From an uncultured Thermoanaerobaculia bacterium (lineage in GTDB: Bacteria > Acidobacteriota > Thermoanaerobaculia > Multivoradales > Multivoraceae), in NCBI GenBank assembly GCA_951812325.1, contig OX638294.1:1278859-1342858 (forward strand): a stretch of DNA of 64,000 nucleotides, written 5' to 3'. Below are positions 22,196 to 48,436 of this stretch, piece after piece; position 1 is the stretch's first letter; every line of letters starts with the position of its first letter. The translations under genes and the position numbers were made by a program. Below the pieces are notes generated by a model. It did no database searches. It had not been told where the DNA came from and saw only the letters and a program-made list of their open reading frames with translations.

Positions 22196-22257
22196 TCGCC
22201 GGGCGCGCCTGCGGTCTCCTTGGCTCGCACGGCTACGACCCGCTACGCTCGCGCCAA

Positions 22258-29977: not shown

Positions 29978-30121
29978 GAAGCCGGGACCGCCCCAGGTCC
30001 AGGGCCGATCACGTCGCGGGCCCGCTTTGCAGTCACCGCTGCCCGTGTGAGAGAGTTGTCCGCAGCAAGCCGACCGGCCCACCAGCGCCGACTCCTCCCC
30101 CACCTTCCCGCGCACCCCGCC

Positions 30122-31117
30122 ATGACTAGCGGCAAGCTCTTGCGCCAACTCATCGTCTCGGGCGCCGATGGCGACCTCGCTGCATTCCGTGCCGCCGCGG
30201 ACGACGTGATCGCCGACGAGCGGCAGAAGCAACACCACCTCCTGGCGAACGACCTCGAGTCCATTCTCTATGGCCGCACTCTCGCTCCCACGTCGCCTGG
30301 CCTGCGGAGGCTCGCCCAGGCGGTGCCCGAAGATCGAGAGCGTGGTTTGGCCTTGCTGTCACTGCGCGAGCCCGTCCGTGGAATGGAGGACGTTGTTCTC
30401 TCAAGCTCAAACCGCACCATCGTCCGGGCCGTCCTTCACGAGCAGAACCGCGAGGAACTGCTTCAAGCGCACGGGCTCCGGCCCGTCGATCGTCTCCTGT
30501 TGTGCGGACCGCCCGGCTGCGGCAAGACGCTGACCGCAGAGGTCATCGCAAATGAGCTCGGCAGACCTCTCGCCATCGTCCGGGTCGACAGCGTCGTGTC
30601 TTCTTTCCTCGGTGAAACCGCAGCCAATCTACGTCGCGTCTTTGACTTCATCGAAACGACGCCGACAGTAGCAGTCTTCGACGAGTTCGACGCCTTGGGC
30701 AAGGAGCGGGACGACTCCTCGGAACACGGCGAGCTGCGCCGGGTTGTCAACGCGGTGCTGCAGATGCTTGACGCATACGACGGCCGCAGCCTCATCGTCG
30801 CCGCCACCAATCACCAATCCATGCTCGACTCGGCCGTCTGGCGCCGTTTTGAGGAGATCCTCTATCTGAGGCTGCCGACCGCAACGCAGATTCGGGAGCT
30901 CCTCCGCGTCAAGCTGCGCGGCGTACGCCGAGCCTTCGACATCGACACGGTCGCCGTTGAGTCGCTCTTCCCTAATAGTACGCACGCCGACGTCGAGCGC
31001 GTGCTTCGCCGAGCCGTCAAGGAAATGGTCCTGAGCGGTGAAGGTCGCCTTGGCCTGAACCACATCCGCGGGGCCGTGCGCCGAGAGAAGGCGCGGCGTC
31101 AACCTGGGCGCATTTGA
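30122..31117 (+). CDS. ietA: AAA+ ATPase, IetA-like (332 aa from ATG 30122)
   Basis: LLCGPPGCGKT Walker A, VAVFDEFDAL Walker B, AATN sensor 1. Immediately followed by an S8 peptidase gene (IetAS architecture). Confidence 0.75.
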   Translation: MTSGKLLRQLIVSGADGDLAAFRAAADDVIADERQKQHHLLANDLESILYGRTLAPTSPGLRRLAQAVPEDRERGLALLSLREPVRGMEDVVLSSSNRTIVRAVLHEQNREELLQAHGLRPVDRLLLCGPPGCGKTLTAEVIANELGRPLAIVRVDSVVSSFLGETAANLRRVFDFIETTPTVAVFDEFDALGKERDDSSEHGELRRVVNAVLQMLDAYDGRSLIVAATNHQSMLDSAVWRRFEEILYLRLPTATQIRELLRVKLRGVRRAFDIDTVAVESLFPNSTHADVERVLRRAVKEMVLSGEGRLGLNHIRGAVRREKARRQPGRI

Positions 31118-31126
31118 GTCAGGCCA

Positions 31127-34482: not shown

Positions 34483-35577
34483 CTAATGAAACAAGGCCTC
34501 CTGCTTCGGGAGAAGCGACAGTGAGCCTCCGCGCCGCCTGAGCCGCTTTTGCTGCTTTAGTTCCGCCTCTACATCTCCAAGGTGCTTCCACCTCCAGATC
34601 TTCGAGCGCAGCTCCTCCTTCAGGACGTCCCTCAAGACCGGCCCCGCCTGGAGCCTGGCCACCAACCACTGACGCAGCGGCGCCAGATCGGGCTTCTCTT
34701 CGATCAAAAGGAACTGGTTCGGGTTCTCGGATCGCCGCACGCTCATGCTGCCGCCGGGGCAAACCGTCCAGACACACTCCTTCATCAGGTCCCGTCCGTC
34801 ATCGTGATTCGTCAGATGGAGCAGAAAGAAGCGCACCGCATCGCCACCCGAGACCATCCGCACATGGGTCCACCACTTCGCGCCTACTCGATCAGCCAGC
34901 AGCTTCGCGCCCTGGTCGGCCCTCTCAACCATCGTTTCGCCCCGGATGTTCCGCCACGCATCGCCTCCGAAGAGCCGGTCGAGATTCTCGGCCTGACCGT
35001 GTCCAGCTTTGAGCTCCTGGTGCATCGCCATGTCGAGTTCGCGCCACATCACGTTGACGAAGAGCTCGACGCGCTCAAACTCCATGATCTCCGCGAGCAG
35101 GTCGCCCGGCAAACTGAAGCCATACGGATCCACGAAGAAAAAGGCAGGCGCCATTTGTTGACCCGCTGACTTCAGGGCATCGACCCCCCGGCGCAACACC
35201 TCGAACGCGTCGCCCGGCTCGACATCGACGACGATCCGGCGGGGCAGATCTTCAATCCGCTCAACCTCTCCCCTCAGCTCGGACGCATTCTGTTCATCCA
35301 GCTCCAGAAACACGAACCGGAACTCGGAGTTCTCCAAGAGCTGGTCTCTCGCCGTGTGGTCAAGCAGCGTCCTCAGCGCCACGAGTGGCGAACCGGGATT
35401 GTCGCCTGCATAGCTACCACGCCCGGCGTGAGTGTCGAAGTACACGACTTTGCCGGACCACAAGCCGAGTTTGGGAAACCAGGCTTTCAGGTAGGCGTCA
35501 ATCAGCTCGTGCTTGACCTGCTGGAAAGGACCGTAGCCTTTCCAATGATCCGGCCGTGGATCGCCGACTCCGTTCAC
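34483..35577 (-). CDS. Three-Cys-motif partner protein TcmP (full length, ~364 aa), probable GTG start at 35575-35577, 12 nt after the upstream gene's stop
   Basis: N-terminus HWKGYGPFQQVKHELIDAYLKAW...VVYFDTHAGRGSYAG and FFFVDPYGF motif. Located directly downstream of the Gp37/Gp68 gene (the pairing that defines this family). Confidence 0.7.
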   Translation of the reverse strand: MNGVGDPRPDHWKGYGPFQQVKHELIDAYLKAWFPKLGLWSGKVVYFDTHAGRGSYAGDNPGSPLVALRTLLDHTARDQLLENSEFRFVFLELDEQNASELRGEVERIEDLPRRIVVDVEPGDAFEVLRRGVDALKSAGQQMAPAFFFVDPYGFSLPGDLLAEIMEFERVELFVNVMWRELDMAMHQELKAGHGQAENLDRLFGGDAWRNIRGETMVERADQGAKLLADRVGAKWWTHVRMVSGGDAVRFFLLHLTNHDDGRDLMKECVWTVCPGGSMSVRRSENPNQFLLIEEKPDLAPLRQWLVARLQAGPVLRDVLKEELRSKIWRWKHLGDVEAELKQQKRLRRRGGSLSLLPKQEALFH

Positions 35578-35590
35578 AGCCCTCGGGTCC

Positions 35591-36316
35591 TCAGTTCGCC
35601 GGGAACTCGTCGTAAGTCCTACCCTTGAGCAGGCGCCCATTCAGATGCTTCCGCGGCCCTCCCCACTGCTTGAAGAAGAAGGGGACGTCATCTCGCCGGC
35701 ACTGAAGCAGGACATTGATCACCCACGCTTCCAGCATGGGCCGCGCTCCGGGACCGCTCTCGCCGCCGACGATGACCCAGTCGATGCCCGTCAGGTCGAA
35801 CTTCTCCAGATCCTCAAGGAGCGGTTCGATTGAGGCAAAGCGAACCGCTGCCGGCGTCTGCCGTAACGCCTGCAGCCGCGGCAAGCCCTGCCGTCGGTTC
35901 TCGACGCTCACTCCAAACCAGACGTTCGGCAACTCACCCATCCAGGAAAGAGGCCCCACAAGAAGCTCGTGCATTCGCTCGTGTCTCTTCGTGAGCACCT
36001 GGTAGGTGTGCCGCTGGACTTCGCTCATCACCCGGCCCACCTCGGCGATGTAGCTCACGGGAACCTGCGGATGGAAGAGGTCGCTCATCGAGTTCACGAA
36101 CACGCGGCGAGGCAGACGCCAGCGACGCGGCTGATCGAGCTTGGCCGGTACCAGGCGAAGGTCGAAACCCTGCTCGAAGGGGTGCCTCGGGACGCCACGG
36201 AAGCGCTCCGAGAAGCGCTCTGCGTAGCAATGTGCGCAGCCTGCACTGACCTTCGTGCAGCCGAGCACCGGGTTCCAGGTCGCGTCGGTCCATTCGATCG
36301 GACTCTTCTCTGACAT
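35591..36316 (-). CDS. Three-Cys-motif protein of the phage Gp37/Gp68 family (PF07505/DUF5131), copy B, 241 aa
   Basis: MSEKSPIEWTDATWNPVLGCTKVSAGCAHCYAERF...FFFKQWGG. Full-length paralog of copy A. Confidence 0.85.
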   Translation of the reverse strand: MSEKSPIEWTDATWNPVLGCTKVSAGCAHCYAERFSERFRGVPRHPFEQGFDLRLVPAKLDQPRRWRLPRRVFVNSMSDLFHPQVPVSYIAEVGRVMSEVQRHTYQVLTKRHERMHELLVGPLSWMGELPNVWFGVSVENRRQGLPRLQALRQTPAAVRFASIEPLLEDLEKFDLTGIDWVIVGGESGPGARPMLEAWVINVLLQCRRDDVPFFFKQWGGPRKHLNGRLLKGRTYDEFPAN

Positions 36317-37150: not shown

Positions 37151-37268
37151 TGGCGTACTTCGACACCGCCTATCTGGTCAAGTGCTACGTGAAGGAGGAA
37201 GGGTGGGACAGCGTCCGAGCGTTGGCTGCCGAGCGCGGATGGGTTGCCTGCTCGGTGTTTGGGCGCCC
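37150..37268 (+). pseudogene. Truncated VapC (PIN-domain) toxin, N-terminal ~35 aa only
   Basis: VAYFDTAYLVKCYVKEEGWDSVRALAAERG matches the VapC N-terminus including the first catalytic Asp (FDT). Downstream sequence in this frame is low-complexity and ends at 37374 (75 codons, versus ~130 for an intact PIN toxin). Confidence 0.5.
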
Positions 37269-37397
37269 GACGCTCTCAAGGTCGACCTCGTCGGCCCCGG
37301 CGCCGGCCACGAACTCGCTCGCGAGCGGCTGCCCGCAAGCGAAGCGCCCTCGAAGTGGTCTCGCCGCTTCCTGATTCCATCCCGCACGCCGCCGGTT
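37269..37397 (+). pseudogene. Decayed 5' fragment of a second drmA allele (43 codons)
   Basis: Frame +1 of 37002 reads DALKVDLVGPGAGHELARERLPASEAPSKWSRRFLIPSRTPPV, compared with DrmA residues 20-63 EAIELDLIGPWRGHELARERLPIFEAPSNWYLTGFLIPTGTPPE (about 24/43 identical; nucleotide identity ~70%). Confidence 0.55.
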
Positions 37398-37591
37398 ACG
37401 CGGGCTCAACTCCTGCCGCCAACCGTCAGACAGCCATCGTTGCTGCCCCCCAACGACTAGACTCGCCGCATGAGCGGGCGAGACCTCAGGAGCCCCAAGC
37501 CGACTGTGAGGCGCCTGGTTCACCGCACCGCCTCCAGTCAGTCGGTCGTCAGAGCCCGGCGGTCCCGCCAGCGCGGCCCCAGAGAGCCAGC

Positions 37592-38797
37592 GTGACCGCC
37601 GACCGCCGCCTGTTGACTCGCGTTGCGCTCCGCAACTACAAGAGCATCGCCGCATGCGACGTGTCACCAGCGAAGCTGTGCTTCCTCGTGGGTCCGAACG
37701 GCTCCGGCAAGAGCAACTTCCTCGACGCGCTTCGGTTCATCGCCGAGTCTCTTCGGTCTTCGATGGATCAGGCGCTGCTCGCACGCGGAGGCATCAACGA
37801 GGTGCGGCGGCGCTCTGGTGGCCACCCGACGCACTTCACCATCCGTGTCGAGTTCGCCCTCGACGCATCGCGAGGCCACTATGCGTTCACTGTCGGGTCC
37901 AAACGCCAGGCCCGCTACCAGGTCCAGCGCGAAGAGTGTCTCGTCGTACCGACGAACGGGCAGAGCGCTCACTTCTTCAAGGTCGAGAGCGGGCGGGTTA
38001 CCAAGACGACCCTCTCGCCAGCGCCAGCGGCACTGCCCGATCGCCTGTACCTTGTCAATGTCTCCGGTCTTGAGGCGTTTCGGCCCGTCTACGACGCCCT
38101 CTCGAGGACTGGCTTCTACAACCTGAACCCGGCAGCCATACGCGACCTTCAGCCGCCCGACACGGGCGAACTCCTCAAGCGGGACGGGAGCAACATCGCA
38201 AGTGTCCTGGCCAACCTCGCCACCAGTTCGCCTCCGTCGATGCGGAGGATCGAGGAGTACCTCGGGACCGTCGTTCCTGGCATGGCGGGCGTCGGTCGTC
38301 ATCGGCTCGGTCCCAGAGAGACGCTCGAGTTCCGGCAGGAGGTGCGCGGTGCCGAGCATCCCTGGCGCTTCCTCGCCAACAACATGTCCGACGGAACGCT
38401 TCGCGCACTCGGCCTGCTCGTCGCGCTCTTTCAGGGCGCGAGCAACGGCGCCGCAGGGCCCGGACTGGTGGGCATCGAAGAGCCGGAAGTCGCGCTTCAC
38501 CCCGCAGCCGTGGAAGTCCTCATCGATGCGCTGCTTGACGCTGCTGAACACGCCCAGATACTTGTCACGAGCCACAGCACCGAACTGCTCGATCACCCGG
38601 AAATTCGGGACGACTCCATCCTTGCCGTGGTAGCAGAGCACGGCGAGAGCCGCATCGGTCCGCTGGACGAGGTCGGGCGGTCGGCGTTGAAGAAGCACCT
38701 CTTCACCGCCGGCGAACTGCTCAGAATGCACCAACTCGATCCGGATCCAGTGCTCTCGAAACCCGGGCAAATCAGGCTCTTCGGCCCCGAGCCCTGA
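37592..38797 (+). CDS. Solitary AAA_21/ABC-type ATPase (OLD/PtuA/AriA-like), ~401 aa from GTG 37592
   Basis: LTRVALRNYKSI...FLVGPNGSGKSNFLDALRFI Walker A, LVGIEEPEVALHP Walker B, ILVTSHS D-loop/H-loop. No nuclease partner gene adjacent. Confidence 0.75.
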   Translation: MTADRRLLTRVALRNYKSIAACDVSPAKLCFLVGPNGSGKSNFLDALRFIAESLRSSMDQALLARGGINEVRRRSGGHPTHFTIRVEFALDASRGHYAFTVGSKRQARYQVQREECLVVPTNGQSAHFFKVESGRVTKTTLSPAPAALPDRLYLVNVSGLEAFRPVYDALSRTGFYNLNPAAIRDLQPPDTGELLKRDGSNIASVLANLATSSPPSMRRIEEYLGTVVPGMAGVGRHRLGPRETLEFRQEVRGAEHPWRFLANNMSDGTLRALGLLVALFQGASNGAAGPGLVGIEEPEVALHPAAVEVLIDALLDAAEHAQILVTSHSTELLDHPEIRDDSILAVVAEHGESRIGPLDEVGRSALKKHLFTAGELLRMHQLDPDPVLSKPGQIRLFGPEP

Positions 38798-38937: not shown

Positions 38938-41900
38938 ATGAGCGAACCGAACAACCACGACGCTGCGGCCGTGACGTCTCTCGATGTCCGCCGGACCCTC
39001 GTCGAAGCGATCGAACTCGACCTCATCGGCCCATGGCGAGGTCACGAGCTTGCGCGGGAGCGGCTGCCGATCTTCGAGGCGCCATCCAACTGGTACCTCA
39101 CCGGCTTCCTGATTCCGACCGGAACGCCGCCGGAACTGAGCCGGGACGACGAGCAGGACGACGGCGGGCCTGACGAGACGCCCGAGCGACCCGGCCTCGC
39201 CGAGGAATCGACGGAGGGCCGGATGGCAGCGAAGAAGCTCTTCTTCCCTTCCTCGATGGGGCTGAGCTTCCTCGCAACCGCGGACAGCCGGCTCGATGTC
39301 TCCGTTCGCTGGGGCGACTACGAACTGGTCGCAACCGCCACCGATGCTGTGGAAGGCGACGGCGGCAACGACAAGGCCGGGGCGCAATACTGGCAGCGGA
39401 GCGCCAGGGAGGAAGCCGTAGAGATCGCCCCGCAGACGGCGGAGCGGCCTGTCCACGACGTGCCCGGCTCGGGCGGGCTGAGGCTTCACGTCGAGCAGAG
39501 GCCCATCTCCGAGATCGCCTCCATCCCCGAAGGCACGCGGGCTGTCAGCGTGTTCCTCGTGAACGAGCGGGAGCCTGCGACTTCGCTCCAGGACACCGAG
39601 CCGACCTACGCGTTCCAGGCCGAAGTCGAGATCCGCAGCGAACAGCCGTTCGTGCCGAGACCGGACCCACGCTCGGCGGAGACCGATGACTGGGATGAAC
39701 AGGTCGCGGCCCTTCACTACCTGGACGCCCCGAGCTACGCCACCGGTCACAACGTCGGCGCCACCTGGGACGTCGACAGCGACGGGAAGTGCCGGAAGAT
39801 CCGCACGACCTGGATGCCCCGGGCGGAGGTCGAGAAGACGGAGACCAGCCAACCGGACGGGGTCGACCTGTCGATGGACCGGCTCGGCCAGCTTGCCGGC
39901 GCCGACGATGCGGACAGGACCCTGCGACCGCTCGTCGCCGCTTACCGCGAGTGGATCAACGAACAGCGCAGGGCGCTCGAGGAAGTTCCCGAAGAGCACG
40001 CGGAGACCGCGGTCGAACTCCTCGATCAGGCTGAGTTCGCCGCCTCGCGGATGGAGCGAGGGATCGCGACGCTTCAAGGCGACGAACAGGCGCTCGACGC
40101 CTTCCGCCTGGCGAATCGCGCCGTGGCCCAGGCTCTTCGGCGCCGAACCCCTGAGGTCTTCGAAGATGCGGCGCCCCGATGGCGGGCATTCCAGCTCGCC
40201 TTCATCCTGCTGAACCTCGCGCCGCTCGCGGACCCCGCCGACCCGCACCGGGAGATGGTCGACCTGCTCTTCTTTCCCACCGGCGGCGGCAAGACGGAGG
40301 CCTACCTGGGTCTCGCCGCCTTCGCGATCGTGCTGAGGCGGCTCCGGAACCCGGAGGCGGGCGGGCGGGCAGGCGCGGGCGTCTCTGTTGTCATGCGCTA
40401 CACGCTGAGGCTGCTGACCCTCGATCAACTCTCGCGCGCCGCGGGCCTGATCTGCGCGCTGGAACTGGAGCGGGCCGACGCGCCCGAGCGCTACGGCGAG
40501 TGGCCGTTCGAGATCGGCCTGTGGGTCGGCAGGGCGGCGACACCGAACCACATGGGGCGAAAGGGCGCCGAACCGCCCGGTTCCGCCCGCCAGAAGGTGC
40601 GGCGCTTCCAGGCGAAACCCTGCTACGAGCCGTCACCCGTCCCCATTGAGGACTGCCCCTGGTGCGGTACGAAGTTCAAGCCCGGCTCCTTCACGCTGCA
40701 ACCGAACGACGACACGCCGACCAACCTGCGCGTGATCTGCGCAAACTGGGAGTGCGAGTTCTCCGGCGACCGCGCGCTCCCCATCGTCGCCGTCGACGAG
40801 CCGTTGTACCGCCGCCTGCCCTGTTTTCTCGTTGCCACGGTGGACAAGTTCGCGGCCCTGCCGTGGGAGGCCCGCGCCGGCGCGCTCCTCGGCGGCGCCG
40901 ACCGACACGATGCGGAGGGCTTCTACGGCGCGGCGGCGCCGAGCCGGGGCCGGCCGCTGCCCTCGCCCCTGCCGCCGCCCGACCTCATCGTCCAGGACGA
41001 ACTCCACCTGATCTCCGGACCCCTGGGATCGATGGCCGGCCTCTACGAGACGGCGGTCGAGGCGCTGGCGCTCCGCGGTTCCGGCAGCCGCGGCGCGAAG
41101 CCGAAGATCGTCGCCTCGACCGCGACCACCCGGCGGGCGCAGGAACAGATCCGGGCCCTCTTCGGCCGTCAGATGACCCGCGTCTTCCCGCCGCCCGGGC
41201 CCTCGCGGCGCGACTCGTTCTTCTCCCAGGTCGTGCCGGCGAGCATGAAGCCGGCTCGGCTATACCTCGGCATCGCGTCGCCGGGCAGGAATGCGAAGGT
41301 CCAGATGCGGCGCGTTCTGCTGCCGCTGATGGCGGCGGCGCAGCAGGCCTTCCGGAACGCGGGCGGCCACGACAACGAGAACAACGCCGCCGACCCGTAC
41401 ATGACGGTGCTTGCCTACTTCAACAGCCTTCGCGAACTCGGCGGTGCGCGGCGCATCGTCGAGGAGGAGGTCCAGAACACGCTGGGCCGCTACGGAGCAA
41501 GGCGCAGACTGAACCAGGAGAGGAGGTACTTCCGCGATCGCGGGCGTCTCTACGAGCCGCTGGAGTTGACCTCCCGGGTCTCGACGGCCCAGGTTGCCGC
41601 TGCGCGACGGCGGCTTGGTCAGCCTTTCCATGCGACGGACCGGGTCGACGTGGCCCTGGCGACGAACATGATCTCCGTCGGCCTCGACATCCAGCGACTC
41701 GGGCTCATGGTCGTCATGGGTCAGCCGAAGACGACCGCCGAGTACATCCAGGCGACCAGCCGGGTCGGCCGCGCAGACGCGAAGCCCGGTCTCGTCATCA
41801 CCCTGCTCAACGCCCACAAGCCGCGCGACCGCTCCCACTACGAACGCTTCCGGCACTACCACGAGACCTTCTACCGCGCGGTCGAGGCTGGAAGCGTCAC

Positions 41901-42360
41901 GCCGTTCGCGGCCCGGGCGTTGGACCGGGGAATGGCCGGAACCCTCGTCGCGCTCGCTCGGCACGCGGAACCGTCTCTGACGCCGGCCACCGCTCCGCCA
42001 GGGCTCGCCGAGGTCCGCGCGCAGCTCGAGGCACTGCTCCTCGATGCGTTCTCCGAGCGGCTCAGCCGCCAGAACATGCCGGAAGCCGAGCGGGAAGAGA
42101 AGCTCGGCTCGGTTCGTCGGCGCGTAGGCGACCTGCTCGACTCCTGGCAGTACGTCGTGGACGACTATCGGGACACCGGCACCGCGGTGAAGTACCAGCA
42201 GTACGAGCGGGAGCAGGGCAAACCACTGCTCCGCGAGATGTTGGACACGGACTTCGAGTCACCCCATCACAAGAAGTTCCGAGTCAACCGCTCGCTTCGT
42301 GACGTGGAGCCCCAAGTGAACCTGTTCATCACGAAGCCGGCCGGCGGCGGAGCGGATTGA
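38938..42360 (+). CDS. drmA: DISARM drmA-like helicase (1140 aa)
   Basis: Helicase motif I LLFFPTGGGKTEAYLG, motif II VQDELHLISGP (DExH), zinc-ribbon DCPWCGTKFKP, helicase C motifs (QATSRVGRADAKPGLVI). 4-nt overlap with the following DUF1998 gene. Confidence 0.8.
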   Translation: MSEPNNHDAAAVTSLDVRRTLVEAIELDLIGPWRGHELARERLPIFEAPSNWYLTGFLIPTGTPPELSRDDEQDDGGPDETPERPGLAEESTEGRMAAKKLFFPSSMGLSFLATADSRLDVSVRWGDYELVATATDAVEGDGGNDKAGAQYWQRSAREEAVEIAPQTAERPVHDVPGSGGLRLHVEQRPISEIASIPEGTRAVSVFLVNEREPATSLQDTEPTYAFQAEVEIRSEQPFVPRPDPRSAETDDWDEQVAALHYLDAPSYATGHNVGATWDVDSDGKCRKIRTTWMPRAEVEKTETSQPDGVDLSMDRLGQLAGADDADRTLRPLVAAYREWINEQRRALEEVPEEHAETAVELLDQAEFAASRMERGIATLQGDEQALDAFRLANRAVAQALRRRTPEVFEDAAPRWRAFQLAFILLNLAPLADPADPHREMVDLLFFPTGGGKTEAYLGLAAFAIVLRRLRNPEAGGRAGAGVSVVMRYTLRLLTLDQLSRAAGLICALELERADAPERYGEWPFEIGLWVGRAATPNHMGRKGAEPPGSARQKVRRFQAKPCYEPSPVPIEDCPWCGTKFKPGSFTLQPNDDTPTNLRVICANWECEFSGDRALPIVAVDEPLYRRLPCFLVATVDKFAALPWEARAGALLGGADRHDAEGFYGAAAPSRGRPLPSPLPPPDLIVQDELHLISGPLGSMAGLYETAVEALALRGSGSRGAKPKIVASTATTRRAQEQIRALFGRQMTRVFPPPGPSRRDSFFSQVVPASMKPARLYLGIASPGRNAKVQMRRVLLPLMAAAQQAFRNAGGHDNENNAADPYMTVLAYFNSLRELGGARRIVEEEVQNTLGRYGARRRLNQERRYFRDRGRLYEPLELTSRVSTAQVAAARRRLGQPFHATDRVDVALATNMISVGLDIQRLGLMVVMGQPKTTAEYIQATSRVGRADAKPGLVITLLNAHKPRDRSHYERFRHYHETFYRAVEAGSVTPFAARALDRGMAGTLVALARHAEPSLTPATAPPGLAEVRAQLEALLLDAFSERLSRQNMPEAEREEKLGSVRRRVGDLLDSWQYVVDDYRDTGTAVKYQQYEREQGKPLLREMLDTDFESPHHKKFRVNRSLRDVEPQVNLFITKPAGGGAD

Positions 42361-44204
42361 TGGCCAAGGCCAAGGGAACAGGTGCGCCTACCGGCAGCAT
42401 TCGCCGCAGTCAGGTCATCACGACCTACGGACCGGGCGCACTGATCGACCTGCCCCACGACTCCGCCATCGTCGGCGGGCTGGATTTCTGGCCATGGCAT
42501 GGTTCTCTCGAGCCCATCGACGAACCCAGGCTGAGCACCAGGCTGCGCAGCCTGACGGGCGGCGCGCTGCCGGCCCTCCACGCCCCGCCCGCCGCTTCGG
42601 ACCGGCCCGGCGACGTCTCGGCCGGCATCGAGGCGCCCCGGTTTCCCGAGTGGTTCGTCGTGCAGCGGGAGGAGTCCTCAACCGACCATGAGGGCGGCCG
42701 CCGTTCGCGCCGCCTGGTTCACCGCAAGTCGCTCGACGAACGACGTAGACACAAGAACCTGGTCCATGGCGGCCAGCCGGTCGTCGCGATCCGCTTCGTG
42801 CGCGGCTGCCCGCGCGGCCATGTCGACGACATCGACTGGTGGAGCTTTGTCCACCGCGGCGTCAGGGACTGCCAGGGCGAACTGGGAATCGAGGAACAGG
42901 GCACCGGCGGAGACCTCTCGAACCTCTTCGTTCGCTGCAGTTGCGGCAACTCGCGGGGTCTGCACGAAGCCAAGGAGATGGACGACCGGCCGCTCGGTCA
43001 CTGCAGCGGCGCCCGACCGTGGCTGGGCCGACACGCCAACGAGGAGTGCGGCGAGCCGGCGCGGCTGCTGATCCGGACCGCGACGAACGCGTGGTTTCCG
43101 CAGATCGTCACGGTGCTGTCGCTGCCGAAGCCGAGCGAGGCGGTCGACGGCATCGTCGCCGAACTGTGGGACGACCTGGAGATCGTCACCGAGCCGGGCG
43201 AACTTCGGTTCCTGAAGAAGAAGCCGAGAATCGCGGCCGCCCTGCACGGCGTCGACGACGCCGACGTGTTGGCGGCAATCGAACGCCGGAAGGCGGGCGA
43301 CCTGGACGACCGACCAGTCAAGTTCGCCGAACTGGACGCCCTGCTGACGGCGCCGGAAGGCTACGACGACGACGTGCCGATCGACGACCGATTCCACGCC
43401 CGGCGCCTGCCGGAGTCAGTATGGAGGGAGGGCGCACGGTCCTTCGCGGACCGGATAGCTGCCGTCGTGCAGGTTCACCGCCTGCGCGAGGTTTCGGCAC
43501 TCACCGGTTTCACCCGCTTCGAGGCGCCGACACCGGACATCCTGGGGGAGGTCGACACGGATGTGGAGCGCGCCGCGCTCGCGCTGGAGCCCGCCTGGTT
43601 CCCGGCCGTGGAGAACCGCGGCGAAGGCGTCTTCGTCCAGTTGGCGACCACAGCCGTTGCGGAGTGGTGCGGCCGCGAGGATGTCCGGACGCGCTGCGCC
43701 ACTCTGGCCGCGGGCCACGAGCGCCGTGAAGCGGAACGACCGCCGGGTGCGAAGCGGCGGCCGTTTCCGGGCGGCCCCTACATTCTCCTGCACACGCTGT
43801 CCCACCTGCTGATCACGTCCCTGGCGCTGCGCTGCGGCTATCCCGCGGCATCGATTCGGGAGCGCGTCTACGTCGACGAAGCCGAGAAGAGGTACGGACT
43901 CCTCCTCTACACCGCGAGCGCCGACGCCGAGGGAACGCTGGGCGGCCTCGTACAGCAGGCCCGGAGCATCAAAGAGCATCTCCGCCACGCTCTCCTCCTC
44001 GGCCAACTCTGTTCGAACGACCCGGTCTGTGCCCACCACCGACCCGACCACAGCGCCGAGAAACGGTGGCTTCACGGCGCCGCCTGCCACGGCTGCACGC
44101 TGATCGCCGAGACCTCCTGCGAGATGCGCAACGACCATCTCGACCGCAGCCTGGTGGCGCGGATCATCGGCGGCGGCGCGGGCTTCTTCGGTCCGATCGA
44201 GTGA
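42357..44204 (+). CDS. drmB: DISARM drmB-like DUF1998 protein (615 aa)
   Basis: C-terminal DUF1998 signature LLHTLSHLLI...ACHGCTLIAETSCEMRNDHLDRSLV (Cys cluster plus N-x2-LDR) and internal Cys-rich zinc-binding region (RGCPRGH...CSCGNSRGLHEAKEMDDRPLGHC). Confidence 0.85.
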   Translation: MMAKAKGTGAPTGSIRRSQVITTYGPGALIDLPHDSAIVGGLDFWPWHGSLEPIDEPRLSTRLRSLTGGALPALHAPPAASDRPGDVSAGIEAPRFPEWFVVQREESSTDHEGGRRSRRLVHRKSLDERRRHKNLVHGGQPVVAIRFVRGCPRGHVDDIDWWSFVHRGVRDCQGELGIEEQGTGGDLSNLFVRCSCGNSRGLHEAKEMDDRPLGHCSGARPWLGRHANEECGEPARLLIRTATNAWFPQIVTVLSLPKPSEAVDGIVAELWDDLEIVTEPGELRFLKKKPRIAAALHGVDDADVLAAIERRKAGDLDDRPVKFAELDALLTAPEGYDDDVPIDDRFHARRLPESVWREGARSFADRIAAVVQVHRLREVSALTGFTRFEAPTPDILGEVDTDVERAALALEPAWFPAVENRGEGVFVQLATTAVAEWCGREDVRTRCATLAAGHERREAERPPGAKRRPFPGGPYILLHTLSHLLITSLALRCGYPAASIRERVYVDEAEKRYGLLLYTASADAEGTLGGLVQQARSIKEHLRHALLLGQLCSNDPVCAHHRPDHSAEKRWLHGAACHGCTLIAETSCEMRNDHLDRSLVARIIGGGAGFFGPIE

Positions 44205-44561
44205 CGATGTACCGGGCCGCACAAAACAGCAATCCAGGAGGTTGCCGGATCCGCCTGCCTTCTCGCGGAAACCGCCTGGCCGCAAACCGACAGGCGTGAA
44301 GGACCAGGCATTCAACGCTCAGGTCGAACTTCCGGCGCATTTCCGGAACTCGCTCGCGGCCGCGCTGGACGCCGGTTTGCTCCGGTTCGACTTCACCGCG
44401 GCTCCAGGTAGAGTTCCGCCACGAAGTTGTCCCGGTCGTCGAGTCGTTCGAGCGGCGTCACGGCCGCTACGCCAACAGCCCGGCCGCCGCCGACGCGCGC
44501 CGCGAACGGAGGGAAGGCCGCGGGACCGGCCCGGAACACGACCAGGGAACAAAGGAGAACG

Positions 44562-44930
44562 ATGTCCTATCTCGCCTACAAACTGCTGCATGTACTGGGA
44601 GCTCTGCTCGTTCTGGCAGCGGCCGGCGGCGTCGCCGTTCATGCCGCGACGGGCGGTCGGCGCGAAGACAACGACCTGCGCGGCGTCCTCGCTTCCATGC
44701 ACGGCGTCGGCCTGCTCCTGAGCGTCGTCACCGGCTTCGGGCTGCTTGCCTCGCTTGGAGCAGGCATGCCGCCCCCCTGGGCCTGGGCGAAGCTCGTCAT
44801 CTGGCTGTTCTTCGGGGCCGCGCTCACCCTGCCCTACCGGAACACGTCGCTGGCCCGGGCACTGGTCGTGGCCCTGCCGCTGCTGGCCGCGATCGCCTCC
44901 TACCTGGCGCTCTACAAGCCATTCCAGTAG
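44562..44930 (+). CDS. Small membrane protein (122 aa), unknown function
   Basis: ATG 44562 with AAAGGAGA SD. Four predicted TM helices (LLHVLGALLVLAAAGGV..., LLLSVVTGFGLLASL..., LVIWLFFGAALTL..., LVVALPLLAAIASYLAL). Confidence 0.55.
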   Translation: MSYLAYKLLHVLGALLVLAAAGGVAVHAATGGRREDNDLRGVLASMHGVGLLLSVVTGFGLLASLGAGMPPPWAWAKLVIWLFFGAALTLPYRNTSLARALVVALPLLAAIASYLALYKPFQ

Positions 44931-45194: not shown

Positions 45195-46091
45195 TCAGAG
45201 GAAGACGCAGGTCGGACACCCACCCCTGTCCTGCGCAAGCCGACGGTCCGTCTCACTCTGGTAGACGGGCTCAGCGGAACGCTCTGTCCGCGCATCGCCG
45301 CCGAGCATCGCCTCCCGCTTCCACTCGTCGTCATCCGACCAGCGCCAGGGCAGAATCTTCACGGCCCCCGGCCTGTCCAGCTCCTCGACCGCGGCGAGCG
45401 CCGCGGCCACGATCTCCCGCTGCAGGACAACATCCCGCGGCTTGCCGGCCGTGTGACCCAACGGGTAGTCGAGAAACGCCGCGCGAGGCGGATTGACCGC
45501 CCGCGTGATCGAGAGCGCCGAACTCATCGACAGGGTCGGAATGCCGTCCGCCTCGACCTGGCGCGCGATCAGTCCCACGGACTGATGGCAAACCGGTCAC
45601 ACCGGGACCAGCAGGGCCAGGTCGACCTGGTCCGCGGCCAGGCGGCGGCTGATCTCCGGCGCCAGCGTCTCGCGCACCCGGCGCGCCGAGTAGATGCCGC
45701 CCATGAACGCGTAGGCGCGCGGCGACACGTCCCCGATCACGCCCGCTGTCGCCAGCGAGCGCAGTGGGTCGACCGGGAAGACGACGTTCGGATCGATCCG
45801 CGCGTCCGTCCGGTCGTAGGCGAAGTGACTCGTCCGCAGTTCGGCCGCCGGCACGCTGCTGTCGATCACCCGCAGCGACACATCGTCGCGATGGTGGAAG
45901 GCGATCTGTCCCGCCCGGTAGACGCCGCCCGAAGCCACCAGGCCGACCCGGCACTCCCTGAGCGGTCTCGCCAGCCGCGTCCACGGCGGCGGCGTCCCAT
46001 GGTGAACCCATCGGTAGGGTTCGTGTCCCAGGCTCGAGTACAGGTCGCGCGTGCGGACGATGTGGTCGACCGGCGGTCTTCGTGTTCCCAT
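45195..46091 (-). CDS. Putative selenoprotein of the glycine/sarcosine/betaine/D-proline reductase protein B family (GrdB/PrdB-like), ~298 aa with in-frame UGA (selenocysteine) at 45597-45599
   Basis: Track ORFs 45597..46091 and 45195..45578 are in the same frame, separated only by TGA plus 6 codons. Joined product reads ...FPVDPLRSLATAGVIGDV...AFMGG...ALLVPV-U-PVCHQS...VEADGIPTLSMSSALSITRAV... with a U-x-x-C redox motif and PrdB/GrdB-family blocks on both sides of the UGA. Stable hairpin 11 nt 3' of the UGA. Confidence 0.65.
45568..45586 (-). ncRNA. SECIS-like mRNA hairpin 11 nt downstream of the in-frame UGA (mRNA AUCAGUCC-GUG-GGACUGAU, 8-bp stem)
   Basis: Reverse complement of 45561-45602 reads GUG UGA CCGGUUUGCC AUCAGUCC GUG GGACUGAU CGCG. 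Confidence 0.5.
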
Positions 46092-46249: not shown

Positions 46250-46819
46250 ATGCACACGAAAAACAGGACCCAGCAGCAGGAGAACCCGGATCCGGGCTCT
46301 CCACCGGTGGCCGGACAGTCCGCGGAAGAAGTCACGCAACCCTCGAGCGGTGCGGCGCGGACTTCGGCTCCGGGCCGCGAGGACGAAGTGTTCACTCGTT
46401 CGGAGTCCGCGTGGCGCGACCGACTCGGCGAGACCGGGTTCCGCGTCCTGCGCAAGGAGGCGACCGAGCCCGCCTTCACCTCGCCACTGAACGGGGAACA
46501 TCGGAACGGCGTCTTCGTTTGCGCCGGTTGCGGCGCCGAGCTGTTCCGGTCGGAGTCGAAGTACGACAGCGGCACCGGCTGGCCGAGCTTTTTCGACCCG
46601 ATCCCCGGCGCGGTCGCAACGAAACGCGACTTCAAGATGCTCGTGCCCCGAACCGAGTACCACTGCTCCCGATGCGGCGGACATCAGGGACACGTGTTCG
46701 GCGACGGTCCGGCGCCGACGGGCCTGCGCTACTGCAACAACGGGGTCGCCCTGCGCTTCCGGCCGACGGAGGAAGAGGGCGACCCGGCCAGCGCTCCCGA
46801 CCCTGGCAAGGAGGACTGA
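46250..46819 (+). CDS. msrB: Peptide-methionine (R)-S-oxide reductase MsrB with N-terminal extension
   Basis: GVFVCAGCGAELFRSESKYDSGTGWPSF...EYHCSRCGGHQGHVFGDGP...RYCNNGVALRF (zinc CxxC pairs and catalytic Cys of SelR/MsrB). Confidence 0.85.
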   Translation: MHTKNRTQQQENPDPGSPPVAGQSAEEVTQPSSGAARTSAPGREDEVFTRSESAWRDRLGETGFRVLRKEATEPAFTSPLNGEHRNGVFVCAGCGAELFRSESKYDSGTGWPSFFDPIPGAVATKRDFKMLVPRTEYHCSRCGGHQGHVFGDGPAPTGLRYCNNGVALRFRPTEEEGDPASAPDPGKED

Positions 46820-46822
46820 ACC

Positions 46823-48436
46823 ATGTCGACTATCGCAAACACCCGCCTCGGCACAGCCGGGGCTCTGGCGGCCCTCGCACTGACGCTGGCCTGCAGCGCC
46901 GGCGAGTCGGTCGAGCCCCTGACTCCGACGGTGGCGACGGAACCCGGAGTCGTCGAAGGAACCCGGCTCGACTCGGGAATCCTCGCGTTCAGGGGCATTC
47001 CCTACGCCGCCCCTCCGGTCGGCGAGCTGCGTTGGCAAGCGCCCCGACCTGTCCCGGCCTGGGAAGGATCCCGCGACGCGACCGGATTCTCCCCGACCTG
47101 CTGGCAACCGCTGTCACCGCCGGGCTCCTTCTACGCCTCCGGCCAGATCGAGCGCAGCGAAGACTGCCTCTACCTGAACGTCTGGACCGGCGCGGACCAC
47201 GCTGAAGCCGCCCTTCCCGTCATGGTCTGGATACACGGCGGAGGTCTCCGGACGGGCGCCGGCAGCACGGTGCTCTACGACGGCGAGAGTCTGGCCAGCC
47301 GCGGTGTCGTCCTGGTGACGATCAACTACCGGCTCGGACCGATGGGCTTTCTCGCTCATCCGGAATTGTCGGCCGAGAACGAAGCGGGAGTGTCGGGAAA
47401 CTACGGCATCCTCGACCAGATCGCGGCACTGCGGTGGGTGCAGGCGAACATCGCCGGCTTCGGCGGCGACCCCGCCCGGGTGACGATCTTCGGCGAGTCC
47501 GCCGGTTCCTGGAGTGTGAACTACCTGACCGCGACCCCTCTCGCGGCAGGCCTCTTCCAGCGCGCGATCGGCCACAGCGGCGGCATCTTCTGGCCCATGC
47601 CGAAGCTCGCTGACGCGGAATCCGAAGGCGCCGGCGTGGCCGAGCGGCTCGGCGCCAGCGACCTGGCAGCGATGCGGGCGGCCTCCGTCGAGGAAGTCTA
47701 TCGGGCGGCCAACGAGTCCGAAGCGATCCAGTTCGTCGGCTTGAACGACGGTCACGTGTTCCCGCGCGACATCTACGACCTGTTCGCTGCCGGCGAGCAG
47801 AACGACGTGGACACGATCGTCGGCTTCAACAGCGACGAAGGCACGGCGCTGTTCGCCGGCGCCGGCGGCACGACGATCGACGGGTACCGCGAGACTCTCG
47901 CCGCGACCTACGGTGACCACGCGGACGCGATGTTCGCGGTCTATCCGGCCGCCAGCGACGAGGAGGCTCACGAAGCGGCCTACCAGAACCAGGCCGACCG
48001 CTTCTTCGCGTGGCAGATGCGAACCTGGGCCCGGCTGCAGAGCAGCACCGGCTCCAGACCTGTCCGCATGTACTTCTTCTCCCGCGTCCCGCCCTGGGAC
48101 GAAGCCGACCAGTACGGCTCGTACCACGCGGCCGAGATCATCTACGCCTTCGACAACCTCCGGAAGAGCGGCGAGACCCGTGACGAGATCGGTCCCTTCA
48201 ATCACGCATGGGACGACACCGACCGGGCGCTCGCCAGCACGATGGCGGACTACTGGGTGAACTTCGCCGGCACCGGCGACCCGAACGGCGACAGCCTGCC
48301 CCACTGGCCGGTCTACGACCCGGACGCCGACGGAGTGCTCGAACTGGGAGACGAGATCGGCGTCATCCAGGGACTCCTGAAGGACCGCCTGGACACGTTC
48401 GACGCCTACTACGAAGACCTGCGCAGCGACGGCTGA
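46823..48436 (+). CDS. Type-B carboxylesterase/lipase family protein (para-nitrobenzyl esterase-like), secreted/lipoprotein
   Basis: Signal peptide with LTLAC lipobox-like site, EDCLYLNVW, VMVWIHGGGL oxyanion hole, GESAGS nucleophile elbow. Confidence 0.9.
   Translation: MSTIANTRLGTAGALAALALTLACSAGESVEPLTPTVATEPGVVEGTRLDSGILAFRGIPYAAPPVGELRWQAPRPVPAWEGSRDATGFSPTCWQPLSPPGSFYASGQIERSEDCLYLNVWTGADHAEAALPVMVWIHGGGLRTGAGSTVLYDGESLASRGVVLVTINYRLGPMGFLAHPELSAENEAGVSGNYGILDQIAALRWVQANIAGFGGDPARVTIFGESAGSWSVNYLTATPLAAGLFQRAIGHSGGIFWPMPKLADAESEGAGVAERLGASDLAAMRAASVEEVYRAANESEAIQFVGLNDGHVFPRDIYDLFAAGEQNDVDTIVGFNSDEGTALFAGAGGTTIDGYRETLAATYGDHADAMFAVYPAASDEEAHEAAYQNQADRFFAWQMRTWARLQSSTGSRPVRMYFFSRVPPWDEADQYGSYHAAEIIYAFDNLRKSGETRDEIGPFNHAWDDTDRALASTMADYWVNFAGTGDPNGDSLPHWPVYDPDADGVLELGDEIGVIQGLLKDRLDTFDAYYEDLRSDG

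What the first reader, a model, noticed from the sequence alone, without database searches (positions are those of the whole stretch)
45195..46091. Probable selenocysteine-containing GrdB/PrdB-family reductase: in-frame UGA flanked by a UxxC motif and followed by a SECIS-like hairpin
Two track ORFs on the minus strand are in the same frame and separated only by TGA (45597-45599) plus 6 codons. The joined protein has conserved GrdB/PrdB-like blocks on both sides (FPVDPLRSLATAGVIGDV...AFMGG before the UGA; U-PVCHQS...VEADGIPTLSMSSALSITRAV after it). The U-P-V-C spacing is the selenoprotein redox motif. 11 nt after the UGA the mRNA forms an 8-bp hairpin (AUCAGUCC GUG GGACUGAU) at the position where a bacterial SECIS sits. 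Automated annotation would split or truncate this gene. msrB, a family that is itself sometimes a selenoprotein, lies just downstream on the opposite strand, but here it has Cys.
Basis: partly seen in the sequence, partly recalled or inferred. Interest (0 to 1): 0.7.

Follow-up and report, generated by a model that had tools for sequence, protein, structure and literature searches.

The report
Split gene is a PrdB-like selenoprotein
Two adjacent reading frames are really one gene whose internal UGA almost certainly encodes selenocysteine; it belongs to a PrdB-like selenoprotein family known from marine metagenomes since 2005, so it is a sound but unsurprising find that automated annotation routinely cuts in two.

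Summary
On the minus strand, 45195-46091 is one 298-codon frame with a single TGA (45597-45599). An 8-bp hairpin begins at the 11th nucleotide after it.

- **Same TGA elsewhere.** All 80 closest homologous loci, from at least seven phyla, carry TGA at this codon. More distant full-length homologues carry Cys or Thr there.
- **Hairpin under RNA-level selection.** Nucleotide sequence is conserved against codon bias (Gly GGA 95% versus 13% background). There are two compensatory pair changes. A Thr-form nested in the Sec clade keeps the peptide but has lost the hairpin.
- **Translation past the UGA.** The post-UGA half is under purifying selection (dN/dS 0.21-0.33).
- **No code reassignment.** TGA is the commonest ordinary stop in the window.

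The protein is homologous to D-proline reductase PrdB over PrdB's full length. It scores below the PrdB equivalog cut-off and has no prdA or other conserved partner, so it is an orphan PrdB-like thiol/selenol oxidoreductase of unknown substrate.

The family was listed as an abundant marine selenoprotein in 2005 and 2008, so this is a new member of a known kind.

I could not check selA/B/C/D; none is in the window.

One possibly new detail: a C-terminal CxxC tail occurs in 78 of 81 Sec-forms and in no Cys- or Thr-form.

The parts
45195..46091 (-). Complete selenoprotein gene: 298 codons (Sec at residue 165) plus the terminal TGA stop at 45195-45197. It encodes a PrdB-like protein.
   Evidence: Single frame with one internal TGA. 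TIGR04483 aligns residues 33-252 to model positions 16-235 of 238. The start Met and N-terminus (M-x-T-R-R-P-P-V-D-H) are conserved in the closest relatives.
45597..45599 (-). In-frame UGA, read as selenocysteine (U165).
   Evidence: TGA at the same codon in 80 of 80 related loci. Cys in 46 and Thr in 6 more distant full-length homologues. It is the only in-frame TGA in the window flanked on both sides by coding-like sequence.
45588..45599 (-). U-P-V-C redox motif (UxxC).
   Evidence: xPVCHQ is invariant in the Sec-, Cys- and Thr-forms. UxxC is the motif listed for the PrdB selenoprotein family (PMC1088965, PMC2398784).
45568..45586 (-). Core SECIS-like hairpin AUCAGUCC-GUG-GGACUGAU: 8 bp with a 3-nt loop G-U-N. 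It starts 10 nt after the UGA and is encoded within H-Q-S-V-G-L-I.
   Evidence: Folds in the window sequence. 98% of cells are paired across 78 distinct sequences, against 24-41% when the partners are slid. There are two compensatory pairs, UA to CG in 12 sequences and GC to AU in 4. Codon choice runs against background. The hairpin is lost in the Thr-form L081 although the peptide is kept.
45565..45589 (-). Hairpin extended by two further pairs (G-C, C/U-G) across a 1-nt internal loop on each side.
   Evidence: RNAalifold consensus, columns 20/44 and 21/43, paired in 81 of 81 sequences. A third pair, 19/45, forms in 63 of 78.
45207..45218 (-). C-terminal C-P-T-C (CxxC) tail motif, residues 292-295, three residues from the C-terminus. 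Candidate second redox centre.
   Evidence: Present in 78 of 81 Sec-forms, 15-18 residues after the conserved YQ motif. Absent from 46 of 46 Cys-forms and 6 of 6 Thr-forms and from the more distant full-length Cys-forms. Its function is inferred only.

Best explanation
The region 45195-46091 (minus strand) is one gene for a 298-residue selenoprotein.

**How the UGA is decoded.** During translation the UGA at 45597-45599 is decoded as selenocysteine. The mRNA hairpin that starts 10 nt downstream (45568-45586, loop G-U-N) serves as the bacterial SECIS element. It recruits SelB-GTP carrying Sec-tRNA(Sec) to the ribosome. SelB binding is inferred from the general bacterial mechanism.

**What the product is.** The protein is homologous over its whole PrdB-equivalent length to the selenoprotein subunit PrdB of D-proline reductase, and to the C-terminal part of GrdB. 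The Sec sits in a U-P-V-C motif directly after the beta-strand LLVPV.

**Most likely function (inferred).** It is most likely a stand-alone or unlinked-partner thiol/selenol oxidoreductase.
- The selenolate attacks a substrate.
- Cys168 resolves the adduct as a selenenyl-sulfide.
- The C-terminal CxxC tail (C292/C295), or a thioredoxin-type reductant, then re-reduces the active site.

It is probably not a proline reductase, and its substrate is unknown.

**Shown versus inferred.**
- Shown: one reading frame, homology, conservation of the TGA, selection on the hairpin, and purifying selection past the UGA.
- Inferred: actual Sec insertion, SelB binding, and the chemistry.
For: **Frame and motif.** One frame with a single internal TGA and a U-P-V-C motif.

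**Homology.** PrdB homology spans both sides of the UGA: TIGR04483 E = 2.2e-48, residues 33-252. Pfam GRDB scores 40.8 bits against a cut-off of 22.

**The TGA in homologues.**
- The same TGA is present in 80 of 80 loci from Acidobacteriota, Gammaproteobacteria, Binatia, Chloroflexi, Myxococcota, Gemmatimonadota and Methylomirabilota.
- 67 of the 120 best database proteins stop exactly at [LM]VP[VA].
- About 129 of the 150 best representatives for the C-terminal half are orphan C-terminal fragments.
- More distant full-length homologues carry Cys (46) or Thr (6) at this position.

**The hairpin.**
- 98.1% of cells are paired, against 24-41% for slid controls.
- There are two compensatory pairs, in 16 cells; none of 500 shuffles reaches this.
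- RNAalifold recovers the same helix.
- Codons run against background: GGA 77 of 81 versus 13%; UCC 80 of 81 versus 20%; CAU 69 of 81 versus 34%; Leu NUG 81 of 81 versus 59%. The flanking Pro, Val, Cys, Ala and Arg codons vary freely.
- Natural control: Thr-form P0002 (locus L081) is nested in the Sec clade. It has ACA at the position and the same HQSVGLIAR peptide, but GGC and CUC codons and no hairpin.

**Translation past the UGA.** dN/dS after the SECIS is 0.21-0.33, against 0.13-0.27 before the UGA, in comparisons of the window with 15 relatives.

**Genetic code.** TGA terminates 17 of 28 window genes, so there is no code reassignment.

**Literature.**
- The PrdB family with UxxC was listed with 42 Sec and 1 Cys sequences in the Sargasso Sea and 235 Sec and 110 Cys in GOS (PMC1088965, PMC2398784).
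- Bacterial SECIS elements have a small apical loop containing G (PMC1088965).
- In true PrdB, Sec attacks the substrate alpha-carbon, and the U151C variant is inactive (PMC11229817).
Against: - **Sec machinery not found.** No selA, selB or selD appears among the window ORFs I scanned. There is no tRNA-Sec in the window or in L001-L060. tblastn with E. coli SelD and SelA sequences recalled from memory found nothing in 1 Mb of related loci.
- **Weak single-sequence signal.** The hairpin alone is weakly significant on this one sequence (z = -1.5). No Rfam SECIS family matches it.
- **Tail role is untested.** The tail-relay idea rests on a correlation that could be plain shared ancestry, because the Sec clade is monophyletic.
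Confidence: 0.88

Rival explanations
1. The TGA is a genuine stop. The locus is a pseudogene, or it holds two separate small genes (164 aa and 127 aa), and nothing is recoded.
For: Gene callers treat it this way. P0001 and 66 similar database entries end at the TGA. No Sec machinery was seen in the window.
Against: - The same TGA is kept in 80 of 80 loci across phyla, with no frameshifts or further stops.
- The downstream 133 codons are under purifying selection (dN/dS 0.21-0.33).
- They align to the C-terminal half of PrdB and of the full-length Cys-forms.
- The catalytic xPVCHQ motif would be split between the two products.
- Hairpin codons are held against codon bias.
Confidence: 0.03
2. 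The UGA is read through, but not as selenocysteine. Possibilities are near-cognate Trp, Cys or Arg insertion, or a local reassignment, with the hairpin acting only as a read-through stimulator.
For: The Sec machinery is unverified for this genome. Two database entries show W at the position (P0064, P0123), which probably reflects gene calling under a TGA=Trp code. Cys-forms are functional in other lineages.
Against: - TGA is the main ordinary stop in the window (17 of 28 genes).
- The position aligns with a redox Cys in homologues, the classic Sec/Cys pair.
- The hairpin has the position and the G-containing small loop of bacterial SECIS elements (PMC1088965).
- The family is an established selenoprotein family (PMC1088965, PMC2398784).
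- A single-step change from TGA to TGC or TGT would give Cys directly, yet TGA is retained in all 80 loci.
Confidence: 0.04
3. This rival concerns function only. The gene encodes the bona fide PrdB subunit of a D-proline reductase, or a GrdB-type glycine, sarcosine or betaine reductase, and works with a pyruvoyl PrdA or GrdE partner encoded elsewhere.
For: The best NCBIfam hit is TIGR04483 PrdB over nearly the full model. JGI names many homologues 'D-proline reductase (dithiol) PrdB'. The selenoproteome literature files the family under PrdB (PMC1088965, PMC2398784).
Against: - It scores 164.8 bits against the equivalog cut-off of 300. The Grd models score 54-59 bits against cut-offs of 602-800.
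- No PrdA/GrdE-type family appears in any window protein I scanned.
- No neighbour is conserved across the 80 loci. Synteny (msrB, carboxylesterase, a membrane protein) exists only within the Acidobacteriota clade.
- The protein has an extra ~30-aa N-terminus and a ~45-aa C-terminal extension with a CxxC that the 238-position PrdB model does not cover.
- Neighbours of related forms are CoA-transferase, CoA-ligase, enoyl-CoA hydratase and nitroreductase genes, not prd genes.
Confidence: 0.1

Closest known systems
Marine 'proline reductase PrdB' selenoprotein family (Zhang, Fomenko & Gladyshev 2005, Sargasso Sea; Zhang & Gladyshev 2008, GOS)
   Same: Pfam07355-type protein with a UxxC motif and Sec/Cys pairs. 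It has many more Sec- than Cys-forms in marine data and occurs in non-clostridial bacteria (PMC1088965, PMC2398784). The window gene fits this description and comes from a marine-type Acidobacteriota lineage.
   Different: I could not align the published sequences here, so membership is judged from the description only. Those papers treat the family as PrdB. In the passages I searched for PrdB and proline reductase, they mention neither the lack of a PrdA partner nor the C-terminal CxxC tail.
D-proline reductase subunit PrdB (Clostridium sticklandii, Clostridioides difficile; NCBIfam TIGR04483)
   Same: Homologous over model positions 16-235 of 238. Sec lies in a UxxC motif at the equivalent place: U165 here, U151 in C. 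difficile (PMC11229817). The Sec is presumably the nucleophile and the nearby Cys the resolving residue.
   Different: It scores below the equivalog cut-off (164.8 versus 300). No prdA, prdC or prdH context was found. It carries extra N- and C-terminal extensions, including a CxxC tail. The host is not a Stickland fermenter.
Glycine/sarcosine/betaine reductase selenoprotein B (GrdB/GrdF/GrdH; Pfam PF07355, TIGR01917/01918)
   Same: Shares the C-terminal ~160-residue region and the Sec position. It passes the Pfam GRDB gathering score.
   Different: It lacks the ~260-residue N-terminal part of GrdB, since the match starts at model position ~262. It has U-P-V-C-H-Q, without the third Cys of the UxxCxxC motif described for GrdB (PMC13188914). 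There is no grdA or grdE nearby, and the scores are far below the cut-offs.
Cys- and Thr-containing paralogues named 'glycine/sarcosine/betaine reductase selenoprotein B family protein' or left hypothetical (for example P0005, P0028, P0033, P0061)
   Same: 42-53% identical over the full length, with the same xPVCHQ motif and the conserved YQxExD block. The AlphaFold model of P0005 is confident: pLDDT 93.7, a Rossmann-like alpha/beta fold.
   Different: They have Cys or Thr instead of Sec, no SECIS hairpin and no C-terminal CxxC tail. Some sit in operons with a family III CoA-transferase and a nitroreductase.
Escherichia coli fdhF-type bacterial SECIS (SelB-binding hairpin just 3' of the UGA)
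   Same: A hairpin inside the coding sequence, roughly 10 nt after the UGA, with a small apical loop carrying conserved G and U. This comparison rests on my own knowledge of the fdhF minimal SECIS plus PMC1088965 for the G-in-loop rule.
   Different: The sequence is unrelated. The loop has only 3 nt (G-U-N), or 5 if the closing C-G pair opens, and there is no obvious bulged U. No Rfam family matches. SelB binding was not tested.

Membership tests
Bacterial selenoprotein gene (UGA recoded by SECIS and SelB) | In-frame UGA with the coding sequence continuing in the same frame | tested here: met
   One frame of 298 codons with a single TGA. Post-UGA dN/dS is 0.21-0.33. It is the only such TGA in the window.
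Bacterial selenoprotein gene (UGA recoded by SECIS and SelB) | The UGA aligns with Cys (or Sec) in homologues | tested here: met
   46 Cys-forms and TGA in 80 of 80 closer loci.
Bacterial selenoprotein gene (UGA recoded by SECIS and SelB) | Stem-loop immediately 3' of the UGA with a small G-containing apical loop, conserved as a structure | tested here: met
   An 8-bp stem 10 nt after the UGA, with G and U of the loop invariant. 98% of cells are paired, with two compensatory pairs and a codon-bias violation. The hairpin is lost in the Thr-form.
Bacterial selenoprotein gene (UGA recoded by SECIS and SelB) | selA, selB, selC (tRNA-Sec) and selD present in the genome | not testable with these tools
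   None is in the 64-kb window or in the flanks of related loci.
Bacterial selenoprotein gene (UGA recoded by SECIS and SelB) | Selenium shown in the polypeptide (75Se labelling or mass spectrometry) | not testable with these tools
   This needs an experiment.
GrdB/PrdB superfamily (Pfam PF07355 GRDB) | Score above the Pfam gathering threshold | tested here: met
   40.8 bits against 22, E = 2.2e-10, residues 78-162. The model ends three residues before the Sec, and the C-terminal half has no Pfam match.
D-proline reductase PrdB proper (NCBIfam TIGR04483, equivalog) | Score at or above the curated equivalog cut-off (300 bits) | tested here: not met
   164.8 bits.
D-proline reductase PrdB proper (NCBIfam TIGR04483, equivalog) | Encoded with prdA (pyruvoyl proprotein) and other prd genes (PMC11229817) | tested here: not met
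   No such family appears in the window proteins I scanned. No neighbour is conserved across the 80 loci. A partner elsewhere in the genome is not excluded.
D-proline reductase PrdB proper (NCBIfam TIGR04483, equivalog) | Sec in a UxxC motif at the PrdB active-site position | tested here: met
   U165-P-V-C168 lies within the region aligned to TIGR04483. The motif is as listed in PMC13188914.
Glycine/sarcosine/betaine reductase protein B (TIGR01917, NF040794, NF040795) | Full-length (~430 aa) match above cut-off, a UxxCxxC motif, and grdA/grdE context | tested here: not met
   54-59 bits against cut-offs of 602-800. Only model positions ~262-425 match. The motif is UPVCHQ with no third Cys, and there are no grd neighbours.
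Marine 'PrdB' selenoprotein family of Zhang & Gladyshev | pfam07355 homology, UxxC with a Sec/Cys pair, and a bacterial SECIS | tested here: met
   compared with the descriptions in PMC1088965 and PMC2398784. I made no direct sequence comparison with their entries.

The most novel reading that the evidence does not exclude
The Sec-containing clade is not a proline or glycine reductase subunit. On this reading it is a distinct, self-contained selenoenzyme with two redox centres:
- the U-x-x-C active site;
- a clade-specific C-terminal C-x-x-C tail.

The tail would act either as a built-in electron or substrate relay, playing the part that GrdA or PrdC and thioredoxin play for the clostridial enzymes, or together with UxxC as a four-ligand Se/S metal site.

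The tail is gained and lost together with Sec. The weak association of family members with acyl-CoA genes hints at an organic-acid or thioester substrate in aerobic marine bacteria.
Probability: 0.3. Interest if true: 0.5.

Novelty: new member of a known kind. Interest (0 to 1): 0.3.

Why it matters
**Annotation.** The gene is a clean, well-controlled example of a selenoprotein that pipelines cut in two.
- 67 of the 120 nearest database proteins are N-terminal stumps.
- About 129 of the 150 nearest representatives of the C-terminal half are orphan fragments.

The family is therefore systematically mis-represented in protein databases, and the Pfam model itself stops just before the Sec.

**Biology.** The result indicates that a Candidatus Multivorans-type Acidobacteriota genome uses selenocysteine. 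It adds one more lineage to a very widespread but functionally uncharacterised PrdB-like family.

**Follow-up handles.** Two small points could make the family's unknown chemistry easier to approach:
- the perfect association between Sec and a C-terminal CxxC tail;
- a natural Sec-to-Thr revertant that has lost both the hairpin and the tail.

None of this overturns current understanding.

Tried and rejected
**Looking for the Sec machinery.**
- ARAGORN on the window and on 60 loci found no tRNA-Sec.
- Pfam scans of 36 window ORFs found no SelA, SelB or SelD.
- tblastn with E. coli SelD and SelA sequences recalled from memory found nothing in any locus.

**Trying to reach the source genome.**
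- Exact-protein look-ups for P0001 and for the carboxylesterase were not on record.
- The cluster listing gave no accession.
- I considered finding SelD clusters whose longest contig is 4,634,923 bp. I dropped the idea because no close query was available and only 120 hits are listed.

**RNA family searches.** Rfam at gathering score and at E <= 10 gave no SECIS family. The only hit was a chance c-di-GMP match on the other strand.

**Structure.**
- The PDB sequence search found no homologue.
- I modelled the Cys-form P0005 instead (pLDDT 93.7).

**Neighbourhood clustering for a conserved partner.** None was found across phyla.

**Readings I rejected.**
- Pseudogene.
- TGA reassignment: TGA ends 17 of 28 genes.
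- msrB as a functional partner: the synteny is clade-limited.

**Literature.** Searches for 'PrdB-like' and 'Candidatus Multivorans' returned nothing.
Full report
**1. Observation**

On the minus strand, the ORF 45597..46091 (164 aa) ends in TGA at 45597-45599. The ORF 45195..45578 lies in the same frame. Six codons (P V C H Q S) sit between the TGA and the GTG at which the ORF lister starts the second ORF.

Translating 46091 to 45195 gives 298 codons with one internal stop...DQVDLALLVPV*PVCHQSVGLIARQVEADGIPTLSMSSALSITRAV....

The RNA AUCAGUCC-GUG-GGACUGAU (45586 to 45568) folds as a perfect 8-bp hairpin. In the 76-nt context it extends into a longer helix that includes the UGA.

Two details of the finding need correcting:
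- The spacer between UGA and the stem is 10 nt.
- msrB (46250-46819, +) is upstream of the gene and divergent from it. It does have Cys (RYCNNG).

Taken alone, the hairpin is only mildly unusual:
- z = -1.5 for the 76-nt fold.
- 21 perfect 8-bp hairpins occur in the window.
- 7 of 1296 TGA triplets have one starting 5-20 nt downstream.

However, this is the only TGA in the 64 kb flanked in frame by coding-like sequence on both sides (GC3 > 0.8).

**2. Family**

I scanned the protein with Cys written at the UGA position.
- It matches NCBIfam TIGR04483 (D-proline reductase PrdB) with E = 2.2e-48. Residues 33-252 align to model positions 16-235 of 238, so the match spans both sides of the UGA.
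- That score, 164.8 bits, is below the 300-bit equivalog cut-off.
- The GrdB, GrdF and GrdH models match only their last ~160 positions, at 54-59 bits.
- Pfam GRDB passes its gathering score but covers only residues 78-162. It ends three residues before the Sec.

**3. Homologues**

A search of 5.8 billion proteins gave two classes of hit.
- About 164-residue proteins, 60-100% identical and covering 55% of the query. P0001 is the exact N-terminal ORF, on a 4,634,923-bp contig.
- About 290-315-residue full-length proteins, 41-56% identical.

In the alignment the full-length proteins carry C, or in six cases T, at the UGA position, followed by the invariant PVCHQ.

All 67 short proteins end at [LM]VP[VA], which is exactly at the TGA.

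A scan of one genome per species returned 80 loci, 56-87% identical.
- The closest are MAGs named Candidatus Multivorans or Thermoanaerobaculia (Acidobacteriota).
- The rest are Gammaproteobacteria, Binatia, Chloroflexi, Myxococcota, Gemmatimonadota and Methylomirabilota, plus the cultured Thioalkalivibrio sp. HK1.
- All 80 have TGA at the same codon, followed by PVCHQSVGL[IV]AR.

A HMMER search of 1.84 billion representatives with the post-UGA 133 residues found 747 relatives. About 129 of the best 150 are short C-terminal fragments that begin 2, 7 or 24 residues after the Sec. These are ORFs called downstream of the TGA. The family is therefore cut in two on a large scale in the databases.

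**4. The hairpin is a selected RNA element**

I aligned 81 sequences (78 distinct) over 75 nt without gaps.

*Pairing and covariation.*
- The 8-bp stem plus three outer pairs is paired in 98.1% of cells.
- With the 3' partners slid by 1-3 columns, only 24-41% of cells pair.
- Pair 24/40 switches from U-A to C-G in 12 sequences. This is His CAU to CAC together with Ile AUC to Val GUC.
- Pair 27/37 switches from G-C to A-U in 4 sequences. This is Gln CAG to CAA together with Leu CUG to UUG.
- None of 500 shuffles reaches the observed number of double changes.

RNAalifold independently predicts the same helix plus two outer pairs.

*Codon usage at the hairpin, against usage in the rest of the same genes.*

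| Codon in hairpin | Observed | Background |
|---|---|---|
| Gly GGA | 77 of 81 | 13% |
| Ser UCC | 80 of 81 | 20% |
| His CAU | 69 of 81 | 34% |
| Leu CUG or UUG | 81 of 81 | 59% |

The flanking Pro, Val, Cys, Ala and Arg codons vary freely.

*A natural control.* The Thr-form P0002 (locus L081) falls inside the Sec clade in a neighbour-joining tree.
- It has ACA at the position and the identical peptide HQSVGLIAR.
- Its codons are GGC and CUC, so the hairpin is gone.
- The nucleotide conservation is therefore tied to the UGA, not to the peptide.

The loop is G-U-N with G and U invariant. This fits the published rule of a small apical loop containing G (PMC1088965).

No Rfam family matches the element.

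**5. The UGA is translated through in this lineage**

I compared the window pairwise with 15 Acidobacteriota relatives.
- dN/dS is 0.13-0.27 for the 164 codons before the UGA.
- dN/dS is 0.21-0.33 for the 120 codons after the SECIS.

TGA is the commonest ordinary stop in the window, ending 17 of 28 genes, so a genome-wide reassignment is excluded.

**6. What could not be shown**

The window holds no tRNA. None of the 36 ORFs I scanned is a SelA, SelB or SelD. The flanks of the related loci hold none either. I could not reach the rest of the genome. Presence of the Sec machinery is therefore inferred from the evolutionary evidence and was not observed.

**7. Is it a proline or glycine reductase?**

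Probably not.
- The score is below the equivalog cut-off.
- There is no PrdA/GrdE-type neighbour in the window.
- No neighbour is conserved across the 80 loci.

The arrangement msrB-carboxylesterase (divergent, upstream) and a 167-aa membrane protein (downstream) is conserved only in the 24 Acidobacteriota loci.

Neighbours of related forms give a weak acyl-CoA theme, which I treat as no more than a lead:
- The Cys-form P0005 overlaps an upstream family III CoA-transferase gene and is followed by a nitroreductase.
- The Thr-form follows an NDP-forming CoA ligase.
- In the Sec loci, an enoyl-CoA hydratase occurs in 10, a luciferase-like monooxygenase in 9 and an acyl-CoA dehydrogenase in 6.

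True PrdB needs PrdA's pyruvoyl group. Its Sec151 attacks the substrate alpha-carbon, and the U151C variant is inactive (PMC11229817).

There is no solved structure:
- The PDB sequence search was empty.

**8. A detail that may be new: the C-terminal CxxC tail**

The window protein ends ...GGCPTCVFL.
- A CxxC motif lies 15-18 residues after the conserved YQ motif and 1-14 residues (one case 18) from the C-terminus in 78 of 81 Sec-forms.
- The three exceptions: one has CxxxC, one has a single Cys, and one has no Cys in its tail.
- None of the 46 Cys-forms or 6 Thr-forms has it. Neither do the more distant full-length Cys-forms.
- Of the orphan C-terminal fragments that reach the YQ motif, 35 of 48 have it.
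- In the seven Sec-forms I inspected, U+3 and this pair are the only Cys positions shared by all.
- The Thr-form nested in the Sec clade has lost it.

Because the Sec clade is monophyletic, the association may be plain ancestry. It also suggests a second redox centre that re-reduces the Se-S bond, or a four-ligand site. I could not model the tail.

**9. Comparison with what is known, and verdict**

'Proline reductase PrdB' with a UxxC motif is listed among the most abundant marine selenoprotein families.
- Sargasso Sea: 42 Sec and 1 Cys sequences (PMC1088965).
- GOS: 235 Sec and 110 Cys sequences (PMC2398784).

It is carried over into recent reviews under TIGR04483 (PMC9312934, PMC13188914).

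The window gene is a new member of that known kind, in a lineage for which I found no literature.

The novelty is low. The remaining uncertainty concerns the Sec machinery, the substrate and the partner.

Noticed in passing
window 22200-44400: A 22-kb anti-phage defence island. It holds DISARM class 1 genes: DrmD 22201-25632, DrmMI 25694-29977, DrmA 38938-42360 and DrmB 42357-44204. Embedded in it are IetA/IetS (30047-33490), a PDC-M30A-like gene (34483-35640, minus strand) and an HEC-01A ATPase (37244-38797) (PADLOC). Synteny with the closest relatives (L005, L032, L001) jumps from window ~44399 to ~22199, so the island is an insertion specific to this genome. It ends about 800 bp downstream of the selenoprotein gene.
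   Followed up: partly
window 45207-45218 (minus strand); loci L001-L080: A C-terminal CxxC tail is present in 78 of 81 Sec-forms and in none of the 52 Cys- or Thr-forms. It may be a second redox centre coupled to Sec. It was not mentioned in the passages of the selenoproteome papers that I searched.
   Followed up: partly
L081 4001-5044 (protein P0002): A Thr-form (ACA codon) nested within the Sec clade. It keeps the HQSVGLIAR peptide but has lost both the hairpin (GGC and CUC codons) and the CxxC tail. It follows an NDP-forming CoA-ligase gene and is flanked by transposase genes. Five further Thr-forms make a separate clade.
   Followed up: partly
protein databases; Pfam PF07355: The family is mis-annotated systematically. 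67 of the 120 nearest proteins are N-terminal stumps ending at the TGA. About 129 of the 150 nearest representatives of the C-terminal half are orphan fragments. Two entries (P0064, P0123) show W at the Sec position, probably from gene calling under a TGA=Trp code. The Pfam GRDB model stops three residues before the Sec, and the C-terminal half has no Pfam family.
   Followed up: partly
window 46250-48436 (+) and 44427-44930 (+): msrB (SelR domain, with Cys in RYCNNG) and a carboxylesterase are transcribed divergently from the selenoprotein gene. A 167-aa membrane protein lies convergent downstream. This arrangement is conserved in all 24 Acidobacteriota loci and in none of the other phyla.
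   Followed up: yes
L082-L084 (protein P0005); L024-L080: There is a weak acyl-CoA theme around family members. The Cys-form P0005 overlaps an upstream family III CoA-transferase gene by 4 nt and is followed by a nitroreductase. In the Sec loci, an enoyl-CoA hydratase occurs in 10, a luciferase-like monooxygenase in 9 and an acyl-CoA dehydrogenase in 6.
   Followed up: partly
window 17743-18558 (+) and 35591-36316 (-): Two DUF5131 genes, with E = 4e-96 and 5e-94. The second lies inside the defence island.
   Followed up: no
window 7845-12503 (-): A 1552-aa fusion protein with carboxyltransferase (ACCA/Carboxyl_trans) domains at the N-terminus and biotin carboxylase domains at the C-terminus. 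It looks like a single-chain acyl-CoA carboxylase-like enzyme.
   Followed up: no
window 45564-45566 (minus-strand alignment column 42-45), L001-L023: Ile at the 3' foot of the hairpin uses the rare codon AUA in 21 of 81 sequences, against 2.7% background. Almost all of these are in the Multivorans clade. The third base is the unpaired nucleotide between the 8-bp stem and the outer pairs. This may be a clade-specific SECIS feature.
   Followed up: no
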